Sequence record: PP886230
DNA: 64,000 bases
Strand: one strand, 5' to 3'
Origin: Escherichia phage vB_EcoM_E9.1
A program made the position numbers and the translations under genes. This document shows, in pieces, positions 578 to 18,853 of this stretch (position 1 is the first letter of the stretch; each line of letters opens with the position of its first letter). A model generated the notes under the pieces. That model worked only from the letters and a program-made list of their open reading frames with translations, was not told the DNA's origin and made no database searches.

Positions 578-597
578 CCACCAGCACAAGCTGGTGG
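578..597. repeat. inverted Chi pair CCACCAGC-ACAA-GCTGGTGG (perfect palindrome)
   Basis: Chi octamer and its reverse complement separated by 4 nt. Confidence 0.6.
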
Positions 598-719
598 ATT
601 CCCTCTAACAGTATTCAGTACTACATGATAGTCTTCATCCTCCTAGGGTAACATAGTGAGGGCTATGATGGCAGTACTGAATACTCCCTTTCAAAAGATA
701 GATCTATGGTATAGTACTG

Positions 720-905
720 ACGGATTTTGGGCGTAGTTACCCTGGATGGATTTTGGACGTAGATATGTCTAGCCCTCCAGAAGTCTGGAAGTAAAGATGG
801 CTATCCATCTAGACGGCTAAACGGCTAGATTTCTGGATGGCTAGACGTTTGGACGGCTAAACGGCTAGATGGGTACACGTCTGGAAGTATAGACGGCTAA
901 ATCAA
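720..905. repeat. iteron-like short direct repeats (gacggctaaacggctagat x2, tctggaagta x2, ttttggRcgtag x2)
   Basis: Direct repeats read from sequence; no ORF. Confidence 0.6.
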
Positions 906-1517
906 AATTTTATTTTGTTTTTCCAATAGTTCCCCTACCGCGTGGGGATAGTTTCCCCGCAGTATCTGAAGTTAGATTTTTCTGAATCTGGAATCATTAT
1001 CTTATAAACTGGGGGCAATGTCAACGGCCTGGCCGGATATTTTTAAAAATTTTTTCAGTACTGAATTTTGGGCGTAACTATGCACCCGATGGGCTTGAGT
1101 CTTTCTCGACTTGATGGAACTATTATACAGTACTGAAAAAATAAAGCAATACCCTGGAAGCAAAAAAGTTTTAATTAATTTGCTTGCTATCCTGGGCCGG
1201 ACTATGGTACTATATTTCAGTACTGAGAAAGTGCGTTTACCTGCTAGGGTGCGGGAGTCTATCCTTTTTTTATATCTTGAATTTTGGACGGATCTTCCCA
1301 CCCCCTGGGGTATCCGCTTTCTCGCGTCTATGTAGTAATTATACGCTTTTTCAGGATCAAGTCAATACCTAAAAACAAAATAATTGAAAATAATTTAACG
1401 CGTTTAAACGGCCCGTAACGCCCTGGATTGTTGGGAGTGGTGCAAATGTATAGCTTAGGTGTATTAATGCGTTAGAATGCGTCTGAGGCCGTTTTATGGG
1501 GTGTAGTAGTGATTTGG

Positions 1518-1610
1518 TTGATTCAGTACTGAATAATAGTACTCCTATATAGAAAGATAGTTCCCCTGGATTGATTCAGTACTGAATAATAGTACTCCTA
1601 TATAGAAAGA
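1518..1610. repeat. tandem direct repeat, two 40-bp copies each containing TTCAGTACTGAA
   Basis: Copy 1 1518-1557, copy 2 1571-1610, identical. Confidence 0.7.
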
Positions 1611-1641
1611 AAACTATTTTAAAAGTATTTGTAGAAAGTAC

Positions 1642-1669
1642 TTGCACCGTACTGATAAAAGCGTATAAT
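1642..1669 (+). promoter_or_regulatory. sigma70-type promoter (TTGCAC-N16-TATAAT) plus downstream leader hairpin
   Basis: -35/-10 hexamers; hairpin gcgggaa..ttcccgc follows; this cassette recurs before most early genes. Confidence 0.6.
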
Positions 1670-1725
1670 GTTTTACATCGAGAGCGGGAACACTTCCCGC
1701 TACACTTTAAGAGAGATTAATACGA

Positions 1726-2087
1726 TGGCAACTCAAATCACCAAAATTATTGCTAACCTGGTTAACTTCCGCGACGAGATGAAAGATCTTCCGGCGGCGA
1801 CGGTTAAAACTCACATTGACGCATACCGCGAACTGATTAAAATGCTGCCGCTTAAGCGTGAACAATACGCCGCTACCGTGATGCTTGATGCGATGATCCA
1901 TAAGATGATCGCCAGTGATTTGACGATGGTTTATCAGTATATGGGCGAAAATTTCGCGGTGTGTAGTAAGCCAGTACCAGGGATGGCAACAACTGAGGAA
2001 TTGCACGGCTTAAACTTAAAACAAGATGCATGGGATAATATGCCTCGTTTCCTGGTATGGGCTGACAGTGGCAAAATTTACAAATAA
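1726..2087 (+). CDS. hypothetical early protein
   Basis: ORF with promoter, leader hairpin and SD upstream; the track ORF from 1668 begins inside the promoter. Confidence 0.65.
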
Positions 2088-2101
2088 GTTTAATAAAGTA
2101 C

Positions 2102-2129
2102 TTGCAAACTATGTTTAATGGCGTATAAT
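2102..2129 (+). promoter_or_regulatory. sigma70-type promoter (TTGCAA-N16-TATAAT)
   Basis: Consensus hexamers followed by leader hairpin ggtggggaa..ttccccac. Confidence 0.6.
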
Positions 2130-2182
2130 GTTTTACATCAGGTGGGGAATAGTTCCCCACTATATAAGAGGATTAAAAAAAA

Positions 2183-2422
2183 ATGGCTAAATCAAAAATG
2201 TTCTTAGGTCACAAAAACAAAACTCATTGGAATGTAAGCCTGTGGATTAATAACGATGAGGGATTGTATCGGTTGGCCCTGGACTTTATTGCCGCCAATA
2301 CTAATCGCAATGATGCGGCCCGTCATATGATGTTATTTTTAGAACAGACTGGACAAGATAAAACACCGGACGGATTCAAATATAGCACTACTGCGATCCG
2401 TGCGGCGATGGTTGGAATGTAA
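2183..2422 (+). CDS. hypothetical early protein
   Basis: ORF 79 aa, SD aagagga upstream. Confidence 0.65.
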   Translation: MAKSKMFLGHKNKTHWNVSLWINNDEGLYRLALDFIAANTNRNDAARHMMLFLEQTGQDKTPDGFKYSTTAIRAAMVGM

Positions 2423-2510
2423 TAGAATAGAATTTATTTAAAGTACTATTGCACGGGGATAGTACTTTATAATAGTGTTTTATTCATACACCAACGATAA
2501 GGGCAACAGC

Positions 2511-2777
2511 ATGAATATTAAGTATTTTGCGACGCGTGAACAAGCTCGGATCGCCGCTCGCCAGGACGGGGCAACGTTTAAAGATATGGGCGTACAATCG
2601 GAACGTGGTAAACGTTGGGCCATTGTAAAGCGTAGTACCGCCAGATCATTACAGTACTGGTTAGCGGCCTTAAAAAGTCCCGATAGTGTATCGCGTCGAG
2701 TGGTAGAAATAAAGCTCGACCGAAAGGGCAACCGCGTGACCGTGTACCGTACTAAAAAGATTGCAGTACTTGAATAA
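2511..2777 (+). CDS. hypothetical early protein, paralogue of 14728-15123
   Basis: Shares FKDMG and DRKGNRVTVY with the later ORF; start moved to ATG after the promoter. Confidence 0.65.
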   Translation: MNIKYFATREQARIAARQDGATFKDMGVQSERGKRWAIVKRSTARSLQYWLAALKSPDSVSRRVVEIKLDRKGNRVTVYRTKKIAVLE

Positions 2778-2784
2778 AAAGTAC

Positions 2785-2812
2785 TTGCAAACTATGTTTA
2801 AAGGCGTATAAT
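2785..2812 (+). promoter_or_regulatory. sigma70-type promoter (TTGCAA-N16-TATAAT)
   Basis: Consensus hexamers plus leader hairpin. Confidence 0.6.
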
Positions 2813-2864
2813 GTTTTACATCGAGAGCGGGAACTCTTCCCGCCTATAACCTGGAGTAATAAAA

Positions 2865-3095
2865 ATGACTAATATGTATATGACTGAAGTTAAAACCGTA
2901 AAAGATACTACCACGAATAAAACTACTTACTTACAGCGGATCTGTGGTGTATGGCAACGTATCAGCAAATCAAAGTACTTTAAATTAACATCATATGCAA
3001 ACCGTTCTGATTCATTCAGTACTGAAATAAAAGGTAATAAAGTACACCAATACGGCACTTATTATTATTACAGCCTGGACGCGATTGCAGTATAA
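2865..3095 (+). CDS. hypothetical early protein
   Basis: ORF 76 aa; SD ggagt upstream. Confidence 0.6.
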   Translation: MTNMYMTEVKTVKDTTTNKTTYLQRICGVWQRISKSKYFKLTSYANRSDSFSTEIKGNKVHQYGTYYYYSLDAIAV

Positions 3096-3123
3096 GCAGT
3101 TTACAAATCTTTACAATTGCCGG

Positions 3124-3205
3124 TATTGACTTATTTTGTCAGTACTGGCATAATGTATTCATTGGCAGATAAGCCGTAGCCCATAGGGTGCGGGAGTGTA
3201 TCTAT
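3124..3205 (+). repeat. promoter-containing repeat element (REP copy, variant): TTGACT promoter followed by conserved core cccatagggtgc
   Basis: Matches the elements at 9337, 11025, 13372, 16361 and 18622. Confidence 0.55.
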
Positions 3206-3344
3206 AGAAAAATTAGTTTAGTATAGTTACAATTGTGCACCCGGTGGGTTAGCTGTTGTCATGGGGTATATTATGCCAGTACTTGATAATGCTGTCAATA
3301 CTTTTTTTTACTATCCAGTACAGAAAACTATTTTTAAAAAGTAC

Positions 3345-3372
3345 TTGCAAACTATGTTTAAAGGCGTATAAT
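3345..3372 (+). promoter_or_regulatory. sigma70-type promoter driving a short non-coding transcript
   Basis: TTGCAA-N16-TATAAT; no ORF before the next promoter. Confidence 0.55.
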
Positions 3373-3377
3373 GTTTT

Positions 3378-3460
3378 ACATCAGGACGGGGGAACGAAAT
3401 AAGTAACTTCCCGTTAAGTAGCCCAGGAGTAAGGCACACGAAAAACTCCCCTGATAAAAT
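3378..3460 (+). ncRNA. candidate small RNA (copy 1), about 85 nt between two promoters
   Basis: Conserved sequence with compensatory-looking stems (acgggg..ccccgt, atcagga..tcccctgat); second copy at 13532-13612; no ORF. Confidence 0.35.
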
Positions 3461-3463
3461 AGT

Positions 3464-3491
3464 TTGACAAATGTTTTTAAAAGCGTATAAT
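3464..3491 (+). promoter_or_regulatory. sigma70-type promoter (TTGACA-N16-TATAAT)
   Basis: Consensus hexamers. Confidence 0.6.
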
Positions 3492-3523
3492 ACTTACATC
3501 AACTACTGAATGAGGGTTACAAA

Positions 3524-4135
3524 ATGAAAACTATCACTACTACTACTTTCGTTATGGATTTTTCTGAATTGAACGCAGAACAAAAAACGTCAGCTATCGA
3601 ACTGGTTCGGGAACGTGAAAAAAACTCAAACGACAATTATTTTTCTGAAAGTGAAATTGAATACTATAAAGAAACAGTACTACCGGAATATGGCATTAAT
3701 GACGCTGAAATACAATTCAGTGGCTTTTGGTCCCAGGGTGACGGTGCATCAATCAGTACTGACCACGTTGACGCAGTGAAGTTTTTACGCAAGGTAAGAG
3801 CATTAACTAAGTATCGCTCAATCCGTCACTTGCTGAATGAAGATGATTTGGCGATGAGTGTAAAGCGTTCGCACTCCCACTACTCGCATGAGAATACTGT
3901 AAGCGGGTACATTGAATCGGCTTACACTGATTTAACCGCAAAACAAGAAACGTTAGTTAATGAGCTTGAGGAACTACTCACTGATACTATTCGTGAATTG
4001 TCCCGCAAGTTGTACCGTGATTTAGAGAATGCATATGAGGATCAATTCACTACTGAAAACATTACGGCACTGATTGAGGGTAACGAGTATCAATTCAATG
4101 TTATTGATGGCGTAGTGGAATCAATCGAATATTAA
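3524..4135 (+). CDS. hypothetical acidic protein (203 aa)
   Basis: ORF with SD gagggt; acidic composition. Confidence 0.7.
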   Translation: MKTITTTTFVMDFSELNAEQKTSAIELVREREKNSNDNYFSESEIEYYKETVLPEYGINDAEIQFSGFWSQGDGASISTDHVDAVKFLRKVRALTKYRSIRHLLNEDDLAMSVKRSHSHYSHENTVSGYIESAYTDLTAKQETLVNELEELLTDTIRELSRKLYRDLENAYEDQFTTENITALIEGNEYQFNVIDGVVESIEY

Positions 4136-4227
4136 TTTAAAAAGTACTTGCAAACTAAGTTTAAAAGCGTATAATACTTTATATCGAGAGCGGGAATAGT
4201 TCCCGCTACTAATGAGGAATACTACAA

Positions 4228-4392
4228 ATGAATACTTTTACCTTCGCTCAATTGAACGCCCTGGATGTATTGTCTGATGCTTTGCGGGATGCAACTGAAA
4301 GCGGTTTATTTGACAATGTTGACATTCACCCTGATGTAATTAATAATTTTTGTGATGCTATCGCAGAAGTACTGGAAGATCTAAAAAAATAA
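4228..4392 (+). CDS. hypothetical small protein (54 aa)
   Basis: ORF below the track cutoff with promoter, hairpin and SD gagga upstream. Confidence 0.5.
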   Translation: MNTFTFAQLNALDVLSDALRDATESGLFDNVDIHPDVINNFCDAIAEVLEDLKK

Positions 4393-4480
4393 TAGAAAGT
4401 ACTTGCAATTAGTTTTTAGTACTGTATAATGTTTTACATAGAGGGGAGAAATGGTTCTCCCTGGTAATGAGGAAAATACA

Positions 4481-4702
4481 ATGGCTAATATCACTACTCT
4501 TTCCCAACTGGAAGCACTGGTTAAATCTATGCGGGAACATGCCGACAATATCGGCGTAAAAGATCCAGCCGTTTGCTTCTGCGACGAATTGAATGATGAT
4601 ACCCTGGTAATAGCAGAAGTCCAGGACGTTTCTAACTATTCCTCGCGTTACACTGGCGGCGTAGCAAATAAAGGTGACTTCTGTTTATACCTTACCAAAT
4701 AA
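4481..4702 (+). CDS. hypothetical early protein
   Basis: ATG after the leader hairpin; the track ORF from 4451 starts inside the hairpin. Confidence 0.65.
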   Translation: MANITTLSQLEALVKSMREHADNIGVKDPAVCFCDELNDDTLVIAEVQDVSNYSSRYTGGVANKGDFCLYLTK

Positions 4703-4705
4703 CAA

Positions 4706-4737
4706 CGCGGGGAGATAATAACTCCCCGTTACTTTTT
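4706..4737 (+). terminator. rho-independent terminator
   Basis: GC hairpin cgcggggag..ctccccg then T-run. Confidence 0.6.
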
Positions 4738-4945
4738 CAGTACTGAATCATTTAATAGACGGATCTCGGCACCCGGTGGGTTAGTGACTGTTTCGTCTTG
4801 ATGTAGTAATTATGCCAGTACTGGATGCACTTGTCAACAACTATTTTTCAAATACTTTTTATTAAAATACTTGCTAATAGTTTTTAAACGCGTATAATGT
4901 TTTGCATAGGGGGAGCGGTTCCCCTGGTAACTAAGGAATAATAAA

Positions 4946-5182
4946 ATGCTTGAACAAATCAAATCAACGTCTGCGAATGTAACGGGAACGGTTGTACACT
5001 TTACTAGTGATGAATCGCGGGGCGTTCCCTATTGTGCTGTACATGTAAACACTGATGGCAACTACTGGTTTACGGTTTACGGATCATATTCATTTGGACG
5101 ACCAGGGCATCAAAAAATTCTGGATAAAGTACAGCCAACGGGTAAAAATATCACGGCTGAAATGTTTTATAAAAAATCATAA
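4946..5182 (+). CDS. hypothetical early protein
   Basis: ORF 78 aa with promoter, hairpin and SD. Confidence 0.65.
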   Translation: MLEQIKSTSANVTGTVVHFTSDESRGVPYCAVHVNTDGNYWFTVYGSYSFGRPGHQKILDKVQPTGKNITAEMFYKKS

Positions 5183-5267
5183 AGTACTTGATAATAGTTT
5201 TTAGTACTGTATAATATTTTACATCGCAAGGGGGTAATGGTTCCCCCTGGTAACTAAGGATAATCAA

Positions 5268-5567
5268 ATGAAAGTTGCATTCATCGCCCTGGCTTTATCT
5301 GTTTCCTCTTTTGCTGTTAATGCGTCGTTAGATGTAAGTAGTGAAAAATTCATTCAGTGCACTGTAGCAATGACAGATGAAAGTACTGGCGAGATTGTAT
5401 TAAAGGATCTGGAGATTCAGCCGGAAGCATTTAAAAACGGCCCGTTCCATGAAGAAGACGAAAACGGTAGCACAACAATTTATTATGATGCCAGTACTAA
5501 ACGCGGGTCGGTCACTGTTATGGATACTGAGAAAGTAACTCATACTGGCGTTATTAATTGCCGTTGA
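5268..5567 (+). CDS. putative secreted protein with N-terminal signal peptide
   Basis: N-terminus MKVAFIALALSVSSFAVNA is hydrophobic with an AxA-type site. Confidence 0.65.
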   Translation: MKVAFIALALSVSSFAVNASLDVSSEKFIQCTVAMTDESTGEIVLKDLEIQPEAFKNGPFHEEDENGSTTIYYDASTKRGSVTVMDTEKVTHTGVINCR

Positions 5568-5588
5568 TAGATACTACGGGGTAACATC

Positions 5589-5819
5589 ATGACTAAGCGA
5601 ATTGTTTTACTTAACGAAAGCAGTACTACACAACTACTTAACGCCGTGCATTATGATATTGAAACGAGCGTTAATCTTATCAGTACTGTAGTACTGTTGG
5701 ACACTGGAAAGGTCGCCAATGATAAAGCGATTGCAGGTATACTAACGGATCTTGAGCCTGGTAGCAGTGCACCAATAACGTTAAATGGTAAAGTGTTTAA
5801 TATTTTACTCACTGATTAA
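5589..5819 (+). CDS. hypothetical protein
   Basis: ORF 76 aa immediately downstream, SD present. Confidence 0.6.
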   Translation: MTKRIVLLNESSTTQLLNAVHYDIETSVNLISTVVLLDTGKVANDKAIAGILTDLEPGSSAPITLNGKVFNILLTD

Positions 5820-5825
5820 GTACAT

Positions 5826-5850
5826 AGCCCACCTGGTGGGCTTTTTTGTT
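5826..5850 (+). terminator. rho-independent terminator
   Basis: Hairpin agcccacctggtgggct then TTTTTT. Confidence 0.7.
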
Positions 5851-6050
5851 TTTGTAGTATCGTAGTACTGAGATACTTTGAAAATAGTTTTAAAAAAGTA
5901 GTTGACATTACCGCAGAAAAGCGTAGAATGTATTACATCAAGACGGGGAGCACTAAGTAGACCGCCAGTAAGTCGAACGAAAAACTGGACACGTCGAGAA
6001 AACTTTGATACACTAATAAACGTAAACTAAACTTTAATTGAGGATTTATA

Positions 6051-6533
6051 ATGGCTAATGTAAAATCATTCATCAAAGCACTGGTAGCAAATGAAACTAA
6101 CGTCGCGGCTGAGATCCTGGCTGAACTGGATAACGATACCATGAAAGCGGTACGCAATAATTTTAACATCGCGTACAGTACTGCGAAAGAACTACAAGCA
6201 AATAAAGCGGCAGAAATTGAAGCGGCAAAGGCGGCCCGTGAAGCAGAACTACAAGCAACAATCGAAAGTATCCAGGCGGCGGTGTCTGGATTGGATCTGG
6301 AAGTGGTTGTGGAAATGGCACATAAAGCCCTGGCGGTTAAGTATGGTGAAGATAAGCCAGAATCTAAACCCAAAAAATGGATTCAGGAACGCGTAGCGGT
6401 AGTACTGGACAACGGGGAAGAATATCTGATTCCGGTGCGTGGTAACTGTATTGCGGTAGTACTGGACGCTATCAAAGAAAGCGGTATGACTCGCGAGGAA
6501 TGGATCGAAGCTCATCGCAAAGTTGAAGCATAA
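6051..6533 (+). CDS. hypothetical Ala/Lys-rich protein (160 aa)
   Basis: ORF with TTGACA promoter near 5903 and a long leader; SD gagga. Confidence 0.7.
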   Translation: MANVKSFIKALVANETNVAAEILAELDNDTMKAVRNNFNIAYSTAKELQANKAAEIEAAKAAREAELQATIESIQAAVSGLDLEVVVEMAHKALAVKYGEDKPESKPKKWIQERVAVVLDNGEEYLIPVRGNCIAVVLDAIKESGMTREEWIEAHRKVEA

Positions 6534-6554
6534 CAATTAAAGTACTGAATCACT

Positions 6555-6582
6555 AGCCCACTGTATAAGTGGGCTTTTTTGT
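6555..6582 (+). terminator. rho-independent terminator
   Basis: Hairpin agcccactgtataagtgggct then TTTTTT. Confidence 0.7.
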
Positions 6583-11012: not shown

Positions 11013-11024
11013 ACTATTGACAAT

Positions 11025-12288: not shown

Positions 12289-12315
12289 TATTAATTTAAT
12301 AGAGGATAACAATAA

Positions 12316-12639: not shown

Positions 12640-12722
12640 AAACTATTGACAATGCAACCCAGTACTGTATAATAGTTTACATGAAGGGGAGAAATGATTC
12701 TCCCCACTGAGAGGAAAGAAAA

Positions 12723-12935
12723 ATGCAAGGTCAACTAATCGTTCGTAAATGGTCTGATACTAACGAAAAACCGTGGGATGTACAATACATCGGACCGGAT
12801 GGGGTATCACGTTATCAGCCTGGCGTAACGCATAGTACTGAGCAATATGCCGCCGCTCACCGCGAACGCCTGTTAGAATCCATGAAACAGGGATTCTGTG
12901 AAAAATTCATTCAAGATCATTGGCTGAAAGATTAA
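12723..12935 (+). CDS. hypothetical protein
   Basis: ORF 70 aa with promoter and hairpin. Confidence 0.65.
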   Translation: MQGQLIVRKWSDTNEKPWDVQYIGPDGVSRYQPGVTHSTEQYAAAHRERLLESMKQGFCEKFIQDHWLKD

Positions 12936-12952
12936 TAGAAGGAGTACAGCTT

Positions 12953-13045
12953 ATGCAAATGAATCCGATGATTATTGTTTTAGCTGTACTTATGATCATT
13001 CATGCAATTGTAGAAGTATTAACGCAATCAGGAGTAATAAAATGA
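12953..13045 (+). CDS. putative small membrane peptide (30 aa)
   Basis: SD aaggagt; hydrophobic; first of three overlapping micro-ORFs. Confidence 0.4.
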   Translation: MQMNPMIIVLAVLMIIHAIVEVLTQSGVIK

Positions 13046-13215
13046 TTCAAGTAGAATTATCAGTACTGAAAGATCTGTTTTATCGGTTAGGTACTACTGG
13101 AGAGTATCCTAAAAGTGATACCGCAAAACTTTTTGTATCACTCGACTTATGGCAACGCGAACAATTAGTAATGTCCTGGCGTAAAGGTAAAGCAGATCGC
13201 GAGGTGAAAGCATGA
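13042..13215 (+). CDS. hypothetical small protein (57 aa)
   Basis: ATGA overlap with upstream stop. Confidence 0.4.
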   Translation: MIQVELSVLKDLFYRLGTTGEYPKSDTAKLFVSLDLWQREQLVMSWRKGKADREVKA

Positions 13216-13361
13216 AAGAATTCTTATTCGAAGTAGTGTTTCAAGGTGTCGGTAGTAACCAACTGATTCGCTCAAGTGGTTACAATGTTAACCAGGCATG
13301 GAATAACATTAAACAAATGTACCCGAACGCTATCACCTATCGCAACCCGAAAGAAGTTTAA
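13212..13361 (+). CDS. hypothetical small protein (49 aa)
   Basis: ATGA overlap with upstream stop. Confidence 0.4.
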   Translation: MKEFLFEVVFQGVGSNQLIRSSGYNVNQAWNNIKQMYPNAITYRNPKEV

Positions 13362-13371
13362 AAATATTTGA

Positions 13372-13452
13372 AAAAGGGATTGACTCCGGTCAGTCCCTTT
13401 GCTATTATATACGCATAGAAACAATTCAGCCCACCGGGTGCATAAATGTATC
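13372..13452 (+). repeat. promoter-containing repeat element (REP copy)
   Basis: gggattgactccggtcagtccc..ctattatat then ..cagcccaccgggtgcataaatgtatc; Chi GCTGGTGG at 13451-13458. Confidence 0.6.
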
Positions 13453-13531
13453 TATTATATGCTGGTGGCTAGTACTGAAAACTATTTTTAAAAAGTACTT
13501 GCATTGTATTTAGAATCAAGTATAATGTTTT

Positions 13532-13612
13532 ACATCAGGACGGGGAACGAAACAAGTAACCCCGTTAAGTAGTCCAGGAGTAAGACATACGAAAACCTCC
13601 CCTGATAAAATA
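13532..13612 (+). ncRNA. candidate small RNA (copy 2)
   Basis: Near-identical to 3378-3460; substitutions look compatible with the proposed stems; sits between two promoters. Confidence 0.35.
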
Positions 13613-13674
13613 GTTTGACAATAGAAATTAAACGAGTATAATACTTACATCAACCACTGATAAGGAAACATAAA

Positions 13675-13950
13675 ATGCGGATTCTACTGACAGCTAACGA
13701 AATCGAACAAGTACTGACTACTAACCTGGAAGACTGGAAACGTGAAGCAGATATCCAGGCGGTTCAATGGTTAAATGATAAGTTAACGCCGGATGACTTA
13801 AGCAAGATTGTAGATCCTCAATTCTACGAAGATATCCACGACACCGCGTTAAGCGTCGAGGATGTACTAGATAAGCACTTTATTGATACTGATTTGCAGG
13901 TTTACGGTCGTAAAAACTTTATCACTATTCACGACATTTACAATAATTAA
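13675..13950 (+). CDS. hypothetical protein
   Basis: ORF 91 aa. Confidence 0.65.
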   Translation: MRILLTANEIEQVLTTNLEDWKREADIQAVQWLNDKLTPDDLSKIVDPQFYEDIHDTALSVEDVLDKHFIDTDLQVYGRKNFITIHDIYNN

Positions 13951-14037
13951 GTATTGACAAAGTATCTTAGTACTGTATAATAGTTTACATCAAGCGAGGG
14001 GAATGGTTCCCCTCCTAACTAAAAGAGAGAAATAAAA

Positions 14038-14220
14038 ATGGCTAAGTGCACTATCTGCAAGAAAGAAATAGTATTAGTTCCAAGTGCCCGTGAACGTGCC
14101 GCTCGGTTCGGTGGCAAAGCGTCAGACTATACAAAAATGTTTACTACCCATACAGCTTGCCAGGTAGCAAAACGTTCACAAGAAAGCGTAGAATTAATGC
14201 GTAAACTTTCCAAAAAATAA
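14038..14220 (+). CDS. hypothetical basic protein
   Basis: ORF 60 aa with promoter and hairpin. Confidence 0.6.
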   Translation: MAKCTICKKEIVLVPSARERAARFGGKASDYTKMFTTHTACQVAKRSQESVELMRKLSKK

Positions 14221-14308
14221 GTATTGACAAAGTATCTTAGTACTGTATAATAGTTTACATCAAGTGAGGGGAAACGGTTCCCCTCCTAACAAAGAGAGAG
14301 AAATAAAA

Positions 14309-14632
14309 ATGGCTATGATCCTTGCCCAGAAAGTAGAATTGAAAATTGTAACCTCCTTTGACATTAACGTTAATCGGTGGACTGATTCACACGGCAATAC
14401 TTACCACTCTTGCTACGTGTCTGCGTTAATTGGCGACCGCTGGGAAGACCTGGGACACGAAACCTTTACATACGGTTACGGTACACAAGGCGAATACACG
14501 GGCTTGGAGATCATTAAAGAAACCGTTATAGGTTTCAACCCGAAAGAAAAAGTTATTCACCGCATCGAGGAAGAGATCAACAAAGAAATAACAGTTCGCT
14601 ACCACGATGTAAAACGTAAGAAAGACATGTAA
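14309..14632 (+). CDS. hypothetical protein, paralogue of 7425-7769
   Basis: ATG after leader hairpin; shared DVKRKKD C-terminus. Confidence 0.7.
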   Translation: MAMILAQKVELKIVTSFDINVNRWTDSHGNTYHSCYVSALIGDRWEDLGHETFTYGYGTQGEYTGLEIIKETVIGFNPKEKVIHRIEEEINKEITVRYHDVKRKKDM

Positions 14633-14727
14633 TAGAATCCATTTAAAGTACTATTTGACATTGCCCAGATAGTACTTTATAATAGACTCTAACTTGTAGT
14701 ACTAACTTAACTAATAGGATGTATACC

Positions 14728-15123
14728 ATGATTACTAAATTCTACGCTACCCGTGAAGCTGCCCGTATTGTTGCACGCGAGGAAGGCGAAACATTTAAAG
14801 ACATGGGCAAAGATGCACCGAAAGGTCAACGCTGGGCCGTACAGTTCAAAGAGATCTCTGATATTGTGAATTCACCGGAGCCAGTACTAACAGCAGCAGA
14901 ACTAAAACGAGCGGATTTACTGGCGTCAATACTTGATGCACAAGATGAGTTTATCGCTGATTCTGATATCAAAGTACAGACAAACCACACCGCTTGGACT
15001 CACGCGGATCACCTGGCAAACCTTAAGCGTCCAAGTGAACTGATTCGCAACCAGAAAGAGATCCGACACGACCGTAAGGGTAATCGTGTAACAGTATACA
15101 GTAAACGCCGCCAGGTTATCTAA
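14728..15123 (+). CDS. hypothetical protein, paralogue of 2511-2777
   Basis: SD agga 8 nt upstream of ATG 14728; shared FKDMG and DRKGNRVTVY. Confidence 0.7.
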   Translation: MITKFYATREAARIVAREEGETFKDMGKDAPKGQRWAVQFKEISDIVNSPEPVLTAAELKRADLLASILDAQDEFIADSDIKVQTNHTAWTHADHLANLKRPSELIRNQKEIRHDRKGNRVTVYSKRRQVI

Positions 15124-15145
15124 TAACTTGCAGTACTAACAACAC

Positions 15146-15171
15146 GGCGGGATCAGTTCCCGCCTTTTTTA
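15146..15171 (+). terminator. rho-independent terminator
   Basis: Hairpin ggcgggatcagttcccgcc then TTTTTT. Confidence 0.7.
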
Positions 15172-15184
15172 TAGGACAAACAAA

Positions 15185-15439
15185 ATGATTAAGGTTCAAC
15201 TATATAAAGATAACATCTTACGGGTACACTATAAAGCACCTCAGAGAATCATCACAAAGGCCGTACAGCTTGCTAATGAGTTTATTAATGGTAACCTATT
15301 ACCAAGGAAGTTAAGCAACGGGAAACTGCGTGTAATCGATGTGGACACTAACAACAGAATAGTAATAGAGAACACAGGAAAAATAAACCTATATGAACAC
15401 CAACAATATAATAAGAAAATAAAACTAATATCACGTTGA
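15185..15439 (+). CDS. hypothetical protein
   Basis: ORF 84 aa. Confidence 0.55.
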   Translation: MIKVQLYKDNILRVHYKAPQRIITKAVQLANEFINGNLLPRKLSNGKLRVIDVDTNNRIVIENTGKINLYEHQQYNKKIKLISR

Positions 15440-15492
15440 CAGTACTCAAATGTTTTAGTACTATATGTACATACCAACACGGGGGAAACAAA

Positions 15493-15735
15493 ATGATTAC
15501 TTTAGAAAAACGTATCAAAGAAACTACATCGCTGGTGGAACTGTTAACAGTACTCAAATGTAAAACAACACCATTCAGCACGCCGGACTTTATTAATATG
15601 GTTGATGTTAATGGTCGCTATCGTATCACGGTCGAACAAGGAGCGGCGAAAGTATTCAGTACTAAAAACACGAAGGAAGTGATCCACGCCGTTAATGTTA
15701 AAAAAGTAGTTGCCATTGATAGTAAAGTACTGTAA
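15493..15735 (+). CDS. hypothetical protein
   Basis: ATG after gggggaaacaaa; the track ORF starts upstream at 15436. Confidence 0.55.
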   Translation: MITLEKRIKETTSLVELLTVLKCKTTPFSTPDFINMVDVNGRYRITVEQGAAKVFSTKNTKEVIHAVNVKKVVAIDSKVL

Positions 15736-15766
15736 GATAGTTACATTAACTCAAGGAGAACATGCA

Positions 15767-16351
15767 ATGCGTAATTATACTAAATTCATCCGTACACTGT
15801 CAGAAATGGAAACCAACAAAGAGATCCTTTCAGCTTGTCGGTTAGCTGGCCTGGAGATCATCGGTGCTGGTTCTTCCCGTATAGTATTCGCTTTAAATGA
15901 TCGGTTAGTGATTAAGGTCGCGAATTGTGATGCGGGTGTAGAACAAAATGAAACTGAATGTAAGGTATGGAATTTTTTAGACTATGACCGCCCTCAGTTG
16001 AAACAGTACTTTGCAAAGGTGCATATGCATTTATGCGATCCTGATAATATGTTTATCGTTATGGATCGGTTGAGTACTGCAAGCAAAGGCAGCGTAAAGC
16101 ACGTTAACGCGTGCAACGAATTAAAGTATAATATTAAACGTAATGCCATTGAACGCCAGCACCGCTTTGCTGATGCACTACAACACGTTGATGATACATT
16201 ATCAACACTAACGATAAGAGATATCAGAAAACAGAATATCGGCCAGGATCGTAATGGACTTATTAAAGTACTTGATTACGGTTTAACCCGCAATATCTGG
16301 AATCAGTACTATAAAAAGCGTGATGTAGAAGCAAGTAAGGTAACACGATAA
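15767..16351 (+). CDS. minimal protein-kinase-like protein (putative Ser/Thr kinase)
   Basis: Gly-rich loop IGAGSSRIVF, VIKV lysine, IRDIRKQNIG resembling HRDLKPENI, and DYG in place of DFG; SD aaggaga 6 nt upstream. Confidence 0.55.
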   Translation: MRNYTKFIRTLSEMETNKEILSACRLAGLEIIGAGSSRIVFALNDRLVIKVANCDAGVEQNETECKVWNFLDYDRPQLKQYFAKVHMHLCDPDNMFIVMDRLSTASKGSVKHVNACNELKYNIKRNAIERQHRFADALQHVDDTLSTLTIRDIRKQNIGQDRNGLIKVLDYGLTRNIWNQYYKKRDVEASKVTR

Positions 16352-16360
16352 AAAAAGATT

Positions 16361-16465
16361 AAAAAAGGGATTGACTCCGGTCAGTCCCTTTGCTATTATA
16401 TATTCATTGAGAGATAACTCACTGACCCATAGGGTGCGGAAGTGTATCTATTATATAAGTATTCA
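16361..16465 (+). repeat. promoter-containing repeat element (REP copy)
   Basis: gggattgactccggtcagtccc..ctattatat then ..cactgacccatagggtgcggaagtgtatc. Confidence 0.6.
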
Positions 16466-16573
16466 GTACTGAAAACTATTTTTAAAAAGTACTTGCATTG
16501 TACTTAGAATCAAGTATAATGTTTTATATCGAGAGGGGAAATGGTTCTCCCTCAAAGAACAAGGAATAAAATC

Positions 16574-16795
16574 ATGACTACAATGACTTGCATTCACGCT
16601 TCAAACCTGCTTAATGATGCGGCCTTTAATGTTGAAACAGAATATCAATGTTATCGGGATGAAAATAAAAAAGTTTTTGTAGTTGATAATAATGGTTTCC
16701 ATATTGAATTGCAATCCGGCTTCACTGGCGTTGATGGTAAATCAGTATGGGGCGTACAGGATGATAAAGGCACATATCATTTTAAACGTAATTAA
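16574..16795 (+). CDS. hypothetical protein
   Basis: ATG after SD aaggaat; the track ORF from 16541 starts in the leader hairpin. Confidence 0.65.
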   Translation: MTTMTCIHASNLLNDAAFNVETEYQCYRDENKKVFVVDNNGFHIELQSGFTGVDGKSVWGVQDDKGTYHFKRN

Positions 16796-16881
16796 GTATT
16801 GACAAAGTATATCAGTACTGTATAATAGTTTACATCAAGGGGAGAATAGTTCTCCCCACACCAATAAAAGGAAACATAATT

Positions 16882-17154
16882 ATGTCTAGCTACTCCGCTA
16901 CTATGATCATTAAAGATATGAACGGTAATCCTACTTCTGCTGGTGGATCATTTGGAAACATTAATTTAGATGGTCGGTTATCCATGCAATCAGCAATCGA
17001 TGCAGCGAAAGAAGTTTTTAAGAATGAATGTACTGTTAGTAAGCTGGATTATATGGGATTTGCTATCGAAAAAACTAATCGTTTTGTGGACTACAAAAAA
17101 CCACTGATGATTGATACTAACCTGAAAGCAAACGAAGTGGAGTACTTATTATGA
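16882..17154 (+). CDS. hypothetical protein
   Basis: ORF 90 aa with promoter and hairpin. Confidence 0.65.
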   Translation: MSSYSATMIIKDMNGNPTSAGGSFGNINLDGRLSMQSAIDAAKEVFKNECTVSKLDYMGFAIEKTNRFVDYKKPLMIDTNLKANEVEYLL

Positions 17155-17342
17155 CAGTTGAAGAAGTAAAAAAAGTACTGGCAGTACTACGCTATCATAA
17201 TCATTGTAAGGTGAAGAATGATCCTGATTATCTTGATTCATCCCTGGAAGAGGATACACTACAAGCAATAAGCCATATGCAAAAAATGCTTAAGCGTATG
17301 ACCGAAAAGAACAGGCCAGACTATATCGGAAATAAAATTTAA
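17151..17342 (+). CDS. hypothetical protein
   Basis: ORF 63 aa, ATGA overlap. Confidence 0.55.
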   Translation: MTVEEVKKVLAVLRYHNHCKVKNDPDYLDSSLEEDTLQAISHMQKMLKRMTEKNRPDYIGNKI

Positions 17343-17428
17343 AAAGTACTTGCATTGTAGTTAGATTAACGTATAATGTTTTACATAGAGCGGGGGAATA
17401 GTTCTCCCGCCAGTCCAGGAGATACACC

Positions 17429-17692
17429 ATGAACACTATCGAAATCACTATCAATGCACACGTATACGACAACGTAGTACTGCAAACTACTATGACCGCT
17501 AATGATACCAGTACTTTGCGGAATACTGTTATTAGTGCCGTATGTGCCGCTATCGGTGATGTCGCCCTGGAAAATGCAAAACACGTAAACGATGGTTTCA
17601 CTATGTGCAAACGTGATAACGCAAAACATATCATCGTGGAAGGTTACGGCGGTGTAGAATTTAATGTTTATATGAAAAAAGTACTTGCATAA
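17429..17692 (+). CDS. hypothetical protein
   Basis: ORF 87 aa with promoter, hairpin and SD. Confidence 0.65.
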   Translation: MNTIEITINAHVYDNVVLQTTMTANDTSTLRNTVISAVCAAIGDVALENAKHVNDGFTMCKRDNAKHIIVEGYGGVEFNVYMKKVLA

Positions 17693-17759
17693 TAACTAAA
17701 ACAAAGTATAATGTTTTGCATAGGGGGAGATATCCTCCCCCACTAAAAGGAGTACTAAA

Positions 17760-17984
17760 ATGGCTAACTTTGATGAACTGATGCGGGAAGTAGCTAACCT
17801 GGCAGAAGAGAAGAAATCATTCGATTCTATCTATAACACCGCTCATCGTGATTCAGTACTGGCATGTAACCAGGATCAAAAAGATGAACTAATCGCCACC
17901 TATCATGAAGCATGGAAGTACTACCGACAATGGGAGAAAGAAGAAAGCGAGTCTACCATCAACGGCATCAATAATCTAATCTAA
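17760..17984 (+). CDS. hypothetical protein
   Basis: ORF 74 aa with promoter and hairpin. Confidence 0.65.
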   Translation: MANFDELMREVANLAEEKKSFDSIYNTAHRDSVLACNQDQKDELIATYHEAWKYYRQWEKEESESTINGINNLI

Positions 17985-18060
17985 AAGTTTTATTTCAGTA
18001 CTATTGACATAGCTTGATAGTACTGATGTAATAACTTTACTAACTACAAGGGGAAACATA

Positions 18061-18318
18061 ATGGAACAGTTCACACAATATCGGGTAAATCCTCAAGCTA
18101 TGGCCTACGTAGAAGACCATAAAACGTTACCAGTACTGCAACCAGTTAAAGGCCATATCTATCGTGCAATGTCGTGGTGTGCGGCCCAGGATGGCTATAA
18201 AACCGTAGCCGTGGGTATGTACTGCGGTAATGGTGAATGGTTTGATCCAAATAATCCGGTAGCCATTGACAGTACTGAAAAAATGAAATGGGCCGACTAC
18301 ATCGAAGATATTTCATAA
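18061..18318 (+). CDS. hypothetical protein
   Basis: ORF 85 aa. Confidence 0.65.
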   Translation: MEQFTQYRVNPQAMAYVEDHKTLPVLQPVKGHIYRAMSWCAAQDGYKTVAVGMYCGNGEWFDPNNPVAIDSTEKMKWADYIEDIS

Positions 18319-18408
18319 AAACTATTTGACAGTACTAACCAGTAATGTATAATGTTTTACATAGAGCGGGGGAATAGTTCTCCCGCCAATAGTTTGGAGT
18401 TAAACATT

Positions 18409-18609
18409 ATGTCTATCGCTATCTCCCTGGTTGAAGTACTGAAAGAAGCTAAAGCCAACCAGATCGACGTAAAGATCCAGGAACTACAAAACGGCTTAAT
18501 CGGCTGTACTTGTACCGCTGGTGGAGCGGCAGACTATCGAGAACACGAATCACTCGAATCACTGGTTCGGTATCTTTCCATGATCGTTGATGATTGGAGA
18601 ATCATCTAA
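18409..18609 (+). CDS. hypothetical protein
   Basis: ATG after the hairpin; the track ORF from 18352 starts in the promoter. Confidence 0.6.
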   Translation: MSIAISLVEVLKEAKANQIDVKIQELQNGLIGCTCTAGGAADYREHESLESLVRYLSMIVDDWRII

Positions 18610-18621
18610 CAAAAAAGAATA

Positions 18622-18705
18622 AAAAAGGGATTGACTCCGGTCAGTCCCTTTGCTATTATATACGCATAGACAAAAACTAGCCCACAGGGTGCATAGGTGT
18701 ATCCA
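18622..18705 (+). repeat. promoter-containing repeat element (REP copy)
   Basis: gggattgactccggtcagtccc..ctattatat then ..ctagcccacagggtgcataggtgtatc; Chi at 18739-18746 just downstream. Confidence 0.6.
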
Positions 18706-18853
18706 AAATATATAGTTAATAACGGTGAGTAACTATCTGCTGGTGGAACTAAAACTATTAATAAAAAAGTATTGACAAAGTATATCAGTACTGCGATAAT
18801 GTATCTCGTAGGGCGGCAATGGTGCGACGGCCCACAAAGTTAGGAGATTCAAA

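What the first reader, a model, noticed from the sequence alone, without database searches (positions are those of the whole stretch)
578..18746. Multiple Chi octamers GCTGGTGG on the + strand of the early region, including inverted Chi pairs
Forward Chi read at 590-597, 6662-6669, 10732-10739, 12193-12200, 13451-13458, 16939-16946, 18527-18534 and 18739-18746 (8 copies in ~19 kb against about 0.3 expected). Reverse copies at 578-585 and 6600-6607 form inverted pairs with the adjacent forward sites. E. coli RecBCD is attenuated by Chi when it approaches from the 3' side of this sequence, so the bias could protect DNA ends from RecBCD and points to an enterobacterial host.
Basis: partly seen in the sequence, partly recalled or inferred. 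Interest (0 to 1): 0.65.

Follow-up and report, generated by a model that had tools for sequence, protein, structure and literature searches.

The report
Chi-site island in jumbo-phage terminal repeat
The cluster of E. coli Chi sequences is real and exactly fills the ~20-kb repeat at each end of this giant E. coli phage's linear genome, which suggests the phage uses the host's RecBCD enzyme to protect and join its DNA ends rather than being destroyed by it.

Summary
There are 9 (not 8) GCTGGTGG on the + strand between 590 and 18746, plus CCACCAGC at 578 and 6600, against 0.1-0.3 expected. The + strand has none in the other 44 kb.

The window starts at the physical left end of a 121Q/Rak2-like E. 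coli jumbo phage (Asteriusvirus). By homology to fEgEco12, positions 1-20107 are the left copy of a ~20-kb direct terminal repeat (DTR) of early genes. The Chi island coincides with this repeat.

The enrichment is specific to exact Chi: the 24 one-mismatch neighbours total only 3 copies. It is about 25-fold in the DTR against about 2-fold in the 333-kb unique genome of fEgEco12. The sites are conserved beyond background within the genus. The island recurs at non-orthologous positions in the DTRs of Klebsiella phage fENko-Kae01 (12 sites) and Pectobacterium phage CBB (7 sites). It is absent from the DTR of the Pseudomonas relative PA5oct (0 sites).

Plus-strand sites face the right genome end. 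The two minus-strand sites face the left end. One sits in a conserved Chi-N4-Chi hairpin ~0.5 kb from the terminus.

Best reading, inferred and not tested: RecBCD entering at the genome ends is switched by Chi inside the repeat, and RecA then recombines the two repeats. The principle is known from P1 and LLS-type lambdoid phages. The phage group and the architecture are new.

The parts
1..20107 (+). Left copy of the long direct terminal repeat (DTR). It holds about 50 small + strand early genes with their own sigma-70-type promoters. GC is 0.385, against 0.31-0.33 in the following DNA.
   Evidence: Bases 1-80 are identical to the PhageTerm- and restriction-mapped left terminus of fEgEco12. The right boundary ...GGGTAACCT|TAGCGACTT was placed by alignment to fEgEco12 position 20993/20994. 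fEgEco12 has an exact 20,993-bp repeat at both ends. The right-hand copy lies outside the window.
578..597 (.). Terminal inverted Chi pair, CCACCAGC-ACAA-GCTGGTGG: a perfect 8-bp hairpin 0.58 kb from the left terminus. It presents an active Chi to RecBCD from either direction.
   Evidence: The fold is -15.7 kcal/mol with z = -3.2. It is conserved in fEgEco12, 121Q and SP27 (minus arm in all; the plus arm is mutated in SP27). In Klebsiella phage fENko-Kae01 it sits at 484-503 with unalignable flanks. The loop is flipped ACAA/TTGT between relatives.
6599..6670 (.). Second inverted Chi pair: CCACCAGC at 6600-6607 and GCTGGTGG at 6662-6669. It forms a 9-bp long-range stem in an intergenic region.
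   Evidence: Both arms are conserved in fEgEco12 and SP27. In 121Q the minus arm is lost (CCGTCAGC). fENko-Kae01 has a minus-strand Chi at the same fractional position, 0.36.
10731..10738 (+). Chi in the 3' arm of a terminator-like hairpin, AGCCCACUGG-UUAA-CGCUGGUGGGCU. G-U pairs in the 5' arm mean that no minus-strand Chi is formed.
   Evidence: -21.8 kcal/mol, z = -4.2. Conserved in fEgEco12, 121Q and SP27.
12193..12200 (+). Chi inside small ORF 12100-12288, in frame 0 (GCT GGT GG).
   Evidence: Conserved in all three close relatives.
13461..13468 (+). Intergenic Chi, about 60 nt downstream of a repeated hairpin/promoter element.
   Evidence: Conserved in all three close relatives.
15531..15538 (+). 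Chi inside ORF 15493-15735, in frame 2 (CTG GTG).
   Evidence: Conserved in all three close relatives.
16939..16946 (+). Chi inside ORF 16882-17154, in frame 0.
   Evidence: Conserved in close relatives. The homologous codons in CBB read GCTTGCGG, so the site is not inherited from deep ancestry.
18517..18524 (+). Chi inside ORF 18352-18609, in frame 0.
   Evidence: Conserved in fEgEco12 and SP27. The region is unaligned in 121Q.
18739..18746 (+). Rightmost Chi, intergenic and unstructured, 1,361 bp from the right edge of the repeat. In the right-hand repeat copy it would be the first Chi met by RecBCD entering the right genome end.
   Evidence: Conserved in all three close relatives.

Best explanation
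The feature is a host-Chi island that fills the ~20-kb direct terminal repeat of a linear jumbo-phage genome.

Shown:
- The window begins at the genome's left terminus, and 1-20107 is the left repeat copy.
- Exact E. coli Chi is about 25-fold over-represented there and only there.
- Nine sites lie on the + strand and two on the - strand.
- The sites are conserved within the genus, and the island is re-created at different positions in the terminal repeats of distant relatives on other enteric hosts.

Inferred mechanism:
1. After injection (or whenever free genome ends exist), host RecBCD loads on a terminus.
2. From the right end it travels leftwards through the right repeat copy and meets 9 correctly oriented Chi, the first 1.4 kb in. 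At 30-40% recognition per site (general knowledge of RecBCD), only 1-4% of enzymes would cross the repeat unswitched.
3. From the left end it meets the two minus-strand Chi at 0.58 and 6.6 kb.
4. At Chi the enzyme stops degrading the 3'-ended strand and loads RecA.
5. For a single infecting genome, the only homologous duplex available is the other terminal repeat. Invasion or annealing between the repeats therefore gives a circle or a concatemer with one repeat copy, which removes the ends and seeds replication. DNA lost distal to Chi is redundant.

This explains why the island stops exactly at the repeat boundary. The phage thereby exploits RecBCD rather than inhibiting it.
For: - Counts and chance expectation.
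- Terminus and repeat: the fEgEco12 record carries an exact 20,993-bp repeat at both ends, mapped by PhageTerm and restriction digests (PMC13070987). Window bases 1-80 equal that terminus. The right repeat copy of vB_Ec-M-J starts at the base aligned to window position 1 (query 1 aligns to record 357049 = 378573-21525+1; repeat length). The boundary in the window is 20107.
- Confinement to the repeat: fEgEco12 has 10 Chi(+) per repeat against 14 in 332.7 kb (0.48 vs 0.042 per kb, P=5e-7). Observed/expected is ~25 in the repeat and ~2.5 in the unique part. The window has 9 vs 0 (P=3e-5). fENko-Kae01 has 12 vs 1 (P=1e-4). CBB has 7 vs 2. 121Q (9) and SP27 (8) have none in their flanks.
- Specificity for exact Chi. 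Chi is the top GC-rich octamer in every enteric repeat.
- Purifying selection: 8 of 8 aligned sites are intact in 121Q, where only 55% of octamers are identical (P=0.008).
- Independent acquisition: apart from the terminal hairpin, sites in fENko-Kae01 and CBB are non-orthologous.
- Host control: PA5oct's 39-kb repeat has the same architecture and 36.5% GC but 0 enteric Chi.
- Geometry: minus-strand sites lie at 0.03 and 0.33-0.36 of the repeat. Plus-strand sites are skewed to the right half (20 of 28 in three lineages, P=0.018), and the last one lies 0.4-1.7 kb from the right edge.
- No recognisable RecBCD inhibitor among 49 repeat-encoded proteins, and no detectable T4 gp2-like end protector in fEgEco12.
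- Precedents: P1 (bioRxiv 10.1101/2021.07.08.451572) and LLS-class lambdoids (PMC12315714).
Against: - No experiment links these phages to RecBCD.
- It is unknown which end enters first, or whether the ends are accessible. A comparative review states that T4-like (group 2) jumbo phages generally carry a DNA end protector (PMC7824862), so my negative search may be a sensitivity failure.
- The phage group encodes its own T4-type recombination set: gp46/47-like, UvsX, UvsY-like, gp32 and endonuclease VII. In lambdoid phages, high Chi correlates with the absence of such genes.
- All repeat genes are on the + strand, so orientation toward the right end cannot be separated from co-orientation with transcription. 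In the unique part of fEgEco12, Chi lies on the sense strand about 20:3.
- The left end is guarded by only two sites.
- PA5oct shows no island of the proposed Pseudomonas Chi GCTGGCGC, so the strategy is not universal in the wider clade.
- An older paper assumed headful packaging for 121Q without mapping the ends (PMC5646251).
- The window itself does not contain the right-hand repeat copy.
Confidence: 0.55

Rival explanations
1. Pure end protection or RecBCD sink. The Chi array only switches off or disassembles the few RecBCD molecules that load on the ends, so that the genome and later replication intermediates survive. Recombination between the repeats is done by the phage's own UvsX, gp46/47 and related proteins, or is not needed.
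For: The phage encodes a complete T4-type recombination set. The many co-oriented sites close to the right end fit a 'fail-safe stop'. No anti-RecBCD gene is detectable. Chi-dependent protection of linear DNA is established (Dabert et al. 1992, as cited in the text read).
Against: According to the evidence reviewed, Chi-dependent survival of linear DNA in vivo needs RecA and a homologous partner. A pure stop signal would work equally well just inside the unique DNA, yet the island ends at the repeat boundary: 0 sites in the next 44 kb of the window and 0 in the 6 kb to the left of the repeat in 121Q.
Confidence: 0.2
2. The sites act later in infection. They would act on ends created in the replicating or packaging pool (terminase cuts at repeat boundaries, broken forks) rather than on the infecting genome. 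This is analogous to lambda/LLS, where the end not held by terminase is open to RecBCD.
For: In LLS-class phages, Chi is clustered at and oriented toward the end left free during packaging. Here the same top-strand, right-end geometry holds. If virion ends are capped by a gp2-like protein, only intracellular ends would be exposed.
Against: By late times a T4-like phage usually has its own recombination and nuclease machinery running. A cut at the left repeat boundary would leave an upstream end in unique DNA that has no properly oriented Chi for more than 25 kb in fEgEco12. The packaging direction is unknown.
Confidence: 0.12
3. Immune evasion through RecBCD-linked defences. Stopping RecBCD near the ends would limit the degradation products that feed CRISPR spacer acquisition. 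Using Chi instead of an inhibitor would avoid triggering defences that guard RecBCD, such as retron Ec48.
For: The absence of a recognisable RecBCD inhibitor fits a 'do not inhibit' strategy. Retron guarding of RecBCD is described in the text read. That Chi limits spacer acquisition is established knowledge and was not tested here.
Against: This is a benefit layered on the same Chi-RecBCD interaction rather than a distinct mechanism. It does not predict confinement to the repeat. Nothing in the sequence bears on it directly.
Confidence: 0.05
4. No RecBCD role. The octamer is a by-product of composition, codon use or GC-rich terminator stems in early genes, or it is the binding site of a phage protein that merely coincides with Chi.
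For: The repeat is more GC-rich than the rest (0.385 vs ~0.32). Two sites lie in hairpin stems related to an AGCCCAC/GTGGGCT terminator family. Three of four coding sites are the same in-frame GCT GGT GG. Genome-wide, Chi tends to lie on the sense strand.
Against: Expectation stays at or below 0.3 under Markov orders 0-4. One-mismatch neighbours and same-composition octamers are not enriched. Hairpin stems would give equal numbers on both strands, not 9:2. Five of nine sites are intergenic, and several of these are unstructured. The island is rebuilt at non-orthologous positions in three genera whose hosts all use this Chi, and is absent from the compositionally similar PA5oct repeat.
Confidence: 0.04

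Closest known systems
Phage P1: terminally redundant DNA cyclised by host RecBCD/RecA, with 50 Chi sites denser toward the DNA ends (Subramaniam & Smith, bioRxiv 10.1101/2021.07.08.451572)
   Same: Both have linear injected DNA with redundant ends. Chi is strongly over-represented and concentrated where the ends lie. Sites face both ends. The proposed role is Chi-stimulated recombination between the terminal repeats.
   Different: P1 is temperate and packages 95 kb by headful from pac, so its ends are spread over tens of kb and Chi is abundant on both strands (31/19). Here the termini are fixed and the island is sharply bounded by a 20-kb exact repeat, with a 9:2 strand ratio. The phage is a virulent 350-kb myovirus with its own recombinase genes. 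The RecBCD/RecA requirement is shown for P1 but untested here.
LLS-class lambdoid phages without a Rec module: 8-25 co-oriented Chi clustered at the right end (Zheng et al. 2025, PMC12315714)
   Same: Both show an excess of exact host Chi, a strong bias to the orientation active for RecBCD entering the right end, end clustering, and no recognisable RecBCD inhibitor.
   Different: LLS phages have cos ends without long repeats and lack phage recombination genes, which is the defining correlation of that class. The relatives of this phage encode UvsX, UvsY, gp46/47 and gp32. In LLS the Chi sites lie in unique DNA.
Long direct terminal repeats carrying early genes: T5 first-step-transfer repeat (10.2 kb) and the 39-kb repeat of the related jumbo phage PA5oct
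   Same: All are exact long terminal repeats packed with small early genes driven by host-type promoters. PA5oct repeat genes are highly transcribed early. T5's repeat also holds two + strand Chi at 0.80-0.85 of its length and none in the next 14 kb.
   Different: PA5oct has no enteric Chi and no cluster of the proposed Pseudomonas Chi. T5 has only two sites, and no Chi role has been described for its repeat.
Chi+ mutations in lambda red gam (the original Chi phenotype; summarised)
   Same: The same octamer, the same orientation rule relative to the free DNA end, and the same benefit: RecBCD-dependent formation of packageable multimers.
   Different: Those are laboratory single-site mutations in a phage that naturally lacks Chi. 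Here there is a natural, conserved multi-site array.

Membership tests
Functional enteric Chi site (RecBCD regulatory sequence) | Exact octamer 5'-GCTGGTGG-3' | tested here: met
   There are 9 + strand and 2 - strand exact copies within 1-20107. Near-matches are not enriched.
Functional enteric Chi site (RecBCD regulatory sequence) | The host's RecBCD recognises this octamer (enteric bacteria) | tested here: met
   The closest relatives are E. coli phages. Islands are also present in Klebsiella and Pectobacterium phages and absent in the Pseudomonas relative. That all tested enteric species use this Chi is stated. The host of the window's own phage is inferred from 95-97% identical relatives.
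Functional enteric Chi site (RecBCD regulatory sequence) | Oriented so that RecBCD coming from a double-strand end approaches from the 3' side | tested here: met
   Given the termini mapped in relatives, + strand sites face the right genome end in the right repeat copy, and - strand sites at 578 and 6600 face the left end. The right copy is not in the window, so this rests on homology.
Functional enteric Chi site (RecBCD regulatory sequence) | Chi-dependent nicking, hotspot activity or protection in vivo or in vitro | not testable with these tools
   Requires purified RecBCD on repeat fragments, or infection of rec mutants.
End-clustered Chi-rich phages of the LLS class (Zheng et al. 2025) | Many Chi, biased to one strand and clustered toward one genome end | tested here: met
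   The strand ratio is 9:2. All sites lie within the terminal 20 kb. fEgEco12 has 0.48 per kb in the repeat against 0.042 per kb in the unique DNA.
End-clustered Chi-rich phages of the LLS class (Zheng et al. 2025) | No phage recombination (Rec) module | tested here: not met
   fEgEco12 is annotated with gp46/47-like nuclease subunits, RecA/UvsX, a UvsY-like protein, gp32 and endonuclease VII. The window's phage should therefore not be filed in this class.
End-clustered Chi-rich phages of the LLS class (Zheng et al. 2025) | No RecBCD inhibitor | tested here: inconclusive
   Pfam and PHROG scans of 49 repeat-encoded proteins found no Gam, Abc2 or gp5.9-type match. Most of these proteins are of unknown function, and the rest of the genome was not scanned.
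End-clustered Chi-rich phages of the LLS class (Zheng et al. 2025) | Growth enhanced by host RecBCD | not testable with these tools
   Needs plating on rec mutants.
P1-type strategy (terminal redundancy recombined by host RecBCD/RecA at Chi) | Terminally redundant linear virion DNA | tested here: met
   Relatives carry exact ~20-22-kb direct terminal repeats. The window starts at that terminus. The repeats are fixed, not permuted as in P1.
P1-type strategy (terminal redundancy recombined by host RecBCD/RecA at Chi) | [quoted passage not shown] | tested here: not met
   Chi is the most frequent GC-rich octamer, but 62 octamers reach at least 9 copies in the repeat. Counts above Chi's are mainly AGTACT- or promoter-derived, AT-rich octamers.
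P1-type strategy (terminal redundancy recombined by host RecBCD/RecA at Chi) | Actively oriented Chi available to RecBCD from either end | tested here: met
   Nine sites face the right end and two face the left end. The arrangement is strongly asymmetric.
P1-type strategy (terminal redundancy recombined by host RecBCD/RecA at Chi) | Growth requires recA, recBC and Chi recognition | not testable with these tools
   Genetic experiment needed.
Long direct terminal repeat with early genes (T5 / PA5oct type) | Identical sequence at both genome ends | not testable with these tools
   The window holds only the left 64 kb. The feature is shown for the relatives fEgEco12, fENko-Kae01, CBB and PA5oct (annotated repeat_region).
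Long direct terminal repeat with early genes (T5 / PA5oct type) | Densely spaced small genes with host-type promoters, expressed early | tested here: met
   There are 12 perfect-consensus + strand sigma-70 promoter matches, and a repeat-specific AAGTACTTGCA motif occurs 13 times in the repeat and 0 times elsewhere. Early expression is shown by RNA-seq only for PA5oct.

The most novel reading that the evidence does not exclude
The ~20-kb terminal repeat of Rak2/121Q-like jumbo phages may be a dedicated RecBCD-handling module. Under this reading it is a sacrificial, duplicated buffer carrying a graded array of outward-facing Chi sites, plus a conserved bidirectional Chi hairpin next to the terminus. 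Its role would be to convert the host's main anti-phage exonuclease into the enzyme that circularises or concatemerises a 350-kb genome in the first minutes of infection, before the phage's own T4-type recombinase is made. If so, virulent phages that own a full recombination system would still depend on host Chi-RecBCD-RecA. The rule 'Chi-rich phages lack Rec genes' would not be general. Chi clustering could also be used to predict the termini and hosts of uncultured long-repeat phages.
Probability: 0.4. Interest if true: 0.72.

Novelty: new variant of a known kind. Interest (0 to 1): 0.6.

Why it matters
RecBCD is the main destroyer of linear foreign DNA in enteric bacteria. How large virulent phages with exposed linear ends cope with it is known only for a few models: T4 gp2, lambda Gam and T7 gp5.9.

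Here a whole group of 350-kb phages appears to use the host's own 'self' signal instead of an inhibitor. The signal is placed precisely in the one part of the genome that is duplicated and can therefore be both sacrificed and recombined.

This extends the P1/LLS principle to virulent jumbo phages that have their own recombinases. It also gives a functional rationale for the unexplained ~20-kb terminal repeats.

The prediction is simple to test: plating and early DNA fate on recB, recC (Chi-blind), recD and recA hosts.

On the practical side, several of these phages are therapy candidates, and their host range could depend on the RecBCD/Chi specificity of the target strain.

Tried and rejected
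- Composition or coding artefact: rejected. Markov orders 5-6 give inflated expectations (1.3-8) only because, on 19 kb, they are trained on the sites themselves.
- Host-derived DNA: rejected. GC is 0.385, and the Chi density of 0.45 per kb is about twice that of E. coli (~0.2 per kb, from my own knowledge; the text read states only that P1's density is two to three times that of E. coli).
- IMG/VR scan for the terminal hairpin CCACCAGC-N4-GCTGGTGG: 46 contigs. Nearly all are unrelated and GC-rich, and only 121Q itself matches the window. This says nothing about generality.
- Rfam on 1-21000: no family.
- Pfam and PHROG scans of 49 repeat-encoded proteins: DksA/TraR zinc finger, GNAT, ParE-like and kinase-like domains, otherwise unknown. 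No known RecBCD inhibitor.
- T4 gp2-like end protector: not found by tblastn or phmmer in the whole fEgEco12 genome (gp4 control positive), nor by PHROG profile among the neighbours of the gp4 homologue. Left unresolved, because a review reports such proteins in this broad group.
- Host-switch prediction: only half fulfilled. PA5oct lacks enteric Chi but has no island of GCTGGCGC either.
- Intergenic preference of the sites (5 of 9, P=0.12; 7 of 11 with the minus sites, P=0.03) and right-half skew (pooled P=0.018) are weak trends, not proofs.
- Literature searches for Chi combined with jumbo phages, terminal repeats or the literal octamer found no prior description for this phage group. The fEgEco12 paper proposes circularisation via the repeats but never mentions Chi or RecBCD.

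Full report
OBSERVATION. An exact search of the window finds GCTGGTGG nine times on the + strand. The sites are at 590, 6662, 10731, 12193, 13461, 15531, 16939, 18517 and 18739. Its complement occurs three times, at 578, 6600 and 57809. Both reverse copies and both 'inverted pairs' are correct.

Expected numbers for 1-19000 are 0.10-0.31 under Markov orders 0-4. P(>=9) is 4e-11 or lower. No forward copy lies in 19001-64000.

The excess is specific to the exact octamer. The 24 one-mismatch neighbours together occur three times on the same strand. Chi ranks first of the 168 octamers of identical composition (9 against a mean of 0.31). It is also the most frequent octamer with at least six G/C.

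WHAT THE REGION IS. The window is 88-97% identical to E. coli jumbo phages of the 121Q/PBECO4 type (Asteriusvirus, 350-385 kb). I retrieved the complete genome of the best-covered relative, fEgEco12. It is deposited with an exact 20,993-bp direct repeat at both ends. The authors mapped this repeat with PhageTerm and confirmed it with restriction digests (PMC13070987).

The first 80 bases of the window equal that left terminus. In vB_Ec-M-J the right repeat copy, computed from the record length and the 21,525-bp repeat reported, begins at the base aligned to window position 1. Aligning the fEgEco12 repeat/unique junction places the right boundary in the window at 20107/20108.

So the 'early region' is the left copy of a ~20-kb direct terminal repeat (DTR). 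It holds about 50 small + strand genes and is 68% coding. It has 12 perfect-consensus sigma-70 promoter matches and a repeat-specific promoter motif. GC drops from 0.385 to 0.31-0.33 at its edge. In the related Pseudomonas phage PA5oct the equivalent 39-kb repeat is highly transcribed early (PMC7318152). All nine forward Chi sites and two of the three reverse ones lie inside the repeat.

CONFINEMENT TO THE REPEAT. In fEgEco12 each repeat copy has 10 forward Chi, which is 0.48 per kb and about 25 times the order-3 expectation. The 332.7-kb unique part has 14 forward and 10 reverse sites, which is 0.04 per kb and about 2-2.5 times expectation. The binomial P is 5e-7. In the window the contrast is 9 against 0 in the following 43.9 kb (P=3e-5).

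COMPARATIVE EVIDENCE. 121Q has nine and SP27 eight forward sites. All lie within the repeat-equivalent, with none in the flanks retrieved.

Two distant relatives have independently determined repeats. Klebsiella phage fENko-Kae01 (19,736 bp) has 12 forward Chi in the repeat against one in the next 30 kb. Pectobacterium phage CBB (22,456 bp) has seven against two. In every one of these repeats Chi is the most frequent GC-rich octamer.

Within the genus the sites are conserved beyond background. All eight alignable window sites are intact in 121Q, where only 55% of aligned octamers are identical (P=0.008). There are also lineage-specific gains (fEgEco12 11378, 121Q 1437) and losses.

Between genera the sites are not orthologous. 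For example, window 16939 corresponds to GCTTGCGG in the CBB homologue. Only the terminal hairpin is positionally shared. High Chi density is therefore maintained by turnover, which is the signature of selection on the motif itself.

As a negative control, PA5oct has the same repeat architecture and a similar composition (36.5% GC). It has no GCTGGTGG on either strand in 50 kb. It has no island of the proposed Pseudomonas Chi either, so the strategy is not universal.

GEOMETRY. RecBCD recognises Chi only when it approaches from the 3' side. With the mapped termini, the forward sites are active for an enzyme entering the right genome end and moving left through the right repeat copy. The first site lies 1,361 bp inside (0.4-1.7 kb in relatives). 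The sites are skewed to the right half of the repeat (20 of 28 in three lineages, P=0.018).

The two reverse sites are active for an enzyme entering the left end. They sit at fractions 0.03 and 0.33-0.36 of the repeat, both in Asteriusvirus and in fENko-Kae01.

The first reverse site is half of a perfect hairpin, CCACCAGC-N4-GCTGGTGG, at 578-597 (-15.7 kcal/mol, z=-3.2). This hairpin recurs at 484-503 in fENko-Kae01 amid otherwise unalignable sequence. Its loop is flipped (ACAA or TTGT) among close relatives.

With a per-site recognition of 0.3-0.4 (general knowledge of RecBCD), 1-4% of enzymes would traverse the repeat from the right unswitched, against 36-49% from the left.

MECHANISM (inferred). 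A Chi-activated RecBCD stops degrading the 3'-ended strand and loads RecA. According to the evidence reviewed by Subramaniam and Smith, linear DNA is rescued in vivo only if it can then recombine. For a single infecting genome, the only homologous duplex is the other terminal repeat. This explains why the island ends exactly at the repeat boundary.

Tails made from the two ends are complementary over most of the repeat. Invasion or annealing would then give a circle or concatemer with one repeat copy. This is the outcome the fEgEco12 authors postulated without naming a mechanism.

Two negative results fit a phage that has to deal with RecBCD at its ends. No known RecBCD inhibitor family is detectable among 49 repeat-encoded proteins. 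No T4 gp2-like end protector is detectable in fEgEco12. Both are weak evidence, and a review reports end protectors in this broad group.

CAVEATS.
- Nothing here is experimental.
- All repeat genes are on the + strand, so orientation toward the right end is confounded with transcription. In the unique genome, Chi follows the sense strand about 20:3.
- The phages encode UvsX, UvsY-like, gp46/47-like, gp32 and endonuclease VII. This contradicts the 'Chi-rich means no Rec module' correlation of lambdoid phages.
- The left end is thinly guarded.
- The order of DNA entry is unknown.
- One older paper assumed headful packaging for 121Q.
- The right repeat copy is outside the window.

COMPARISON WITH KNOWN SYSTEMS. 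The principle is established. Phages can enrich host Chi near their DNA ends and use RecBCD/RecA.

P1 has 50 sites that are denser toward the ends, and it requires recA, recBC and Chi recognition. LLS-class lambdoids have 8-25 co-oriented, right-end-clustered sites, no Rec module, and growth aided by RecBCD.

The present case works like these but is not a member of either class. It fails the 'no Rec module' criterion. It has fixed rather than permuted ends. Its island is delimited by an exact 20-kb repeat.

I found no paper that links Chi with jumbo phages or terminal repeats. I therefore rate it a new variant of a known kind.

VERDICT. Interest is 0.6. The statistical and comparative case for selection is strong, the architecture is new, and the prediction is directly testable. 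The underlying principle, however, is already known.

Noticed in passing
window, whole length (e.g. 523-530, 549-556; 133 copies in 1-20107 and 117 in 20108-64000): The palindromic hexamer AGTACT is the single most frequent hexamer both inside and outside the terminal repeat. Expected counts are 6-48 and 11-50 under Markov orders 1-3. fEgEco12 has 839 copies in its 333-kb unique part. The motif occurs in genes as well as between them and also marks the fENko-Kae01 terminus. There is no positional link to Chi, and no literature was found. Its function is unknown; it might be a protein-binding or modification site.
   Followed up: partly
window 9335-9372, 13373-13410, 16364-16401, 18624-18661: A repeated intergenic element, AAAGGGATTGACTCCGGTCAGTCCCTTT-GCTATTATAT (a 12-bp hairpin overlapping promoter-like hexamers), is present in four copies. 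It has recognisable copies in the terminal repeats of fENko-Kae01 and CBB.
   Followed up: partly
window 1-1667: The first 1.6 kb at the genome terminus has no convincing ORF. It contains a terminus-proximal hairpin (GGCAGAGGAAGTCTGCC, 5-21), a perfect TTGACA-16-TATAAT promoter at 366-393, a CAGTACTG-flanked hairpin at 523-556, and the Chi hairpin. It could be a non-coding early transcript, or it could hold packaging or entry signals.
   Followed up: no
window 586-589: The 4-nt loop of the terminal Chi hairpin is ACAA in the window and SP27 but TTGT in fEgEco12 and 121Q. The whole hairpin is therefore inverted ('flip-flop'). This suggests the hairpin or cruciform forms in vivo.
   Followed up: partly
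window 1-20107 versus 20108-64000: The promoter-type motif AAGTACTTGCA occurs 13 times in the repeat and never in the following 44 kb (15 vs 1 in fEgEco12). The repeat therefore has its own promoter class.
   Followed up: partly
window ~20400-28000: Immediately right of the repeat lies a long run of tightly packed 65-85-aa + strand ORFs with overlapping stops and starts. This contrasts with the individually spaced genes of the repeat. It may be a paralogue array.
   Followed up: no
L014 (phage T5) 8127-8134 and 8689-8696: T5's 10.2-kb left terminal repeat (first-step-transfer DNA) carries two + strand Chi at 0.80 and 0.85 of its length and none in the next 14 kb. This is a small-scale echo of the jumbo-phage pattern.
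   Followed up: partly
L007 (fEgEco12 300001-350000) 33825, 33963, 37110, 37368, 37623, 47288: Six of the ten minus-strand Chi in the unique genome lie on the sense strand of the minus-strand RCC1-like paralogue genes. Three of them are spaced about 256 nt apart in one gene, presumably one per protein repeat.
   Followed up: no
window 57809-57816: This is the only Chi outside the repeat (minus strand). It lies just upstream of a T-run and a GC hairpin (CCCCTGCGGGGGG), so it is probably in a terminator region and unrelated to the island.
   Followed up: no
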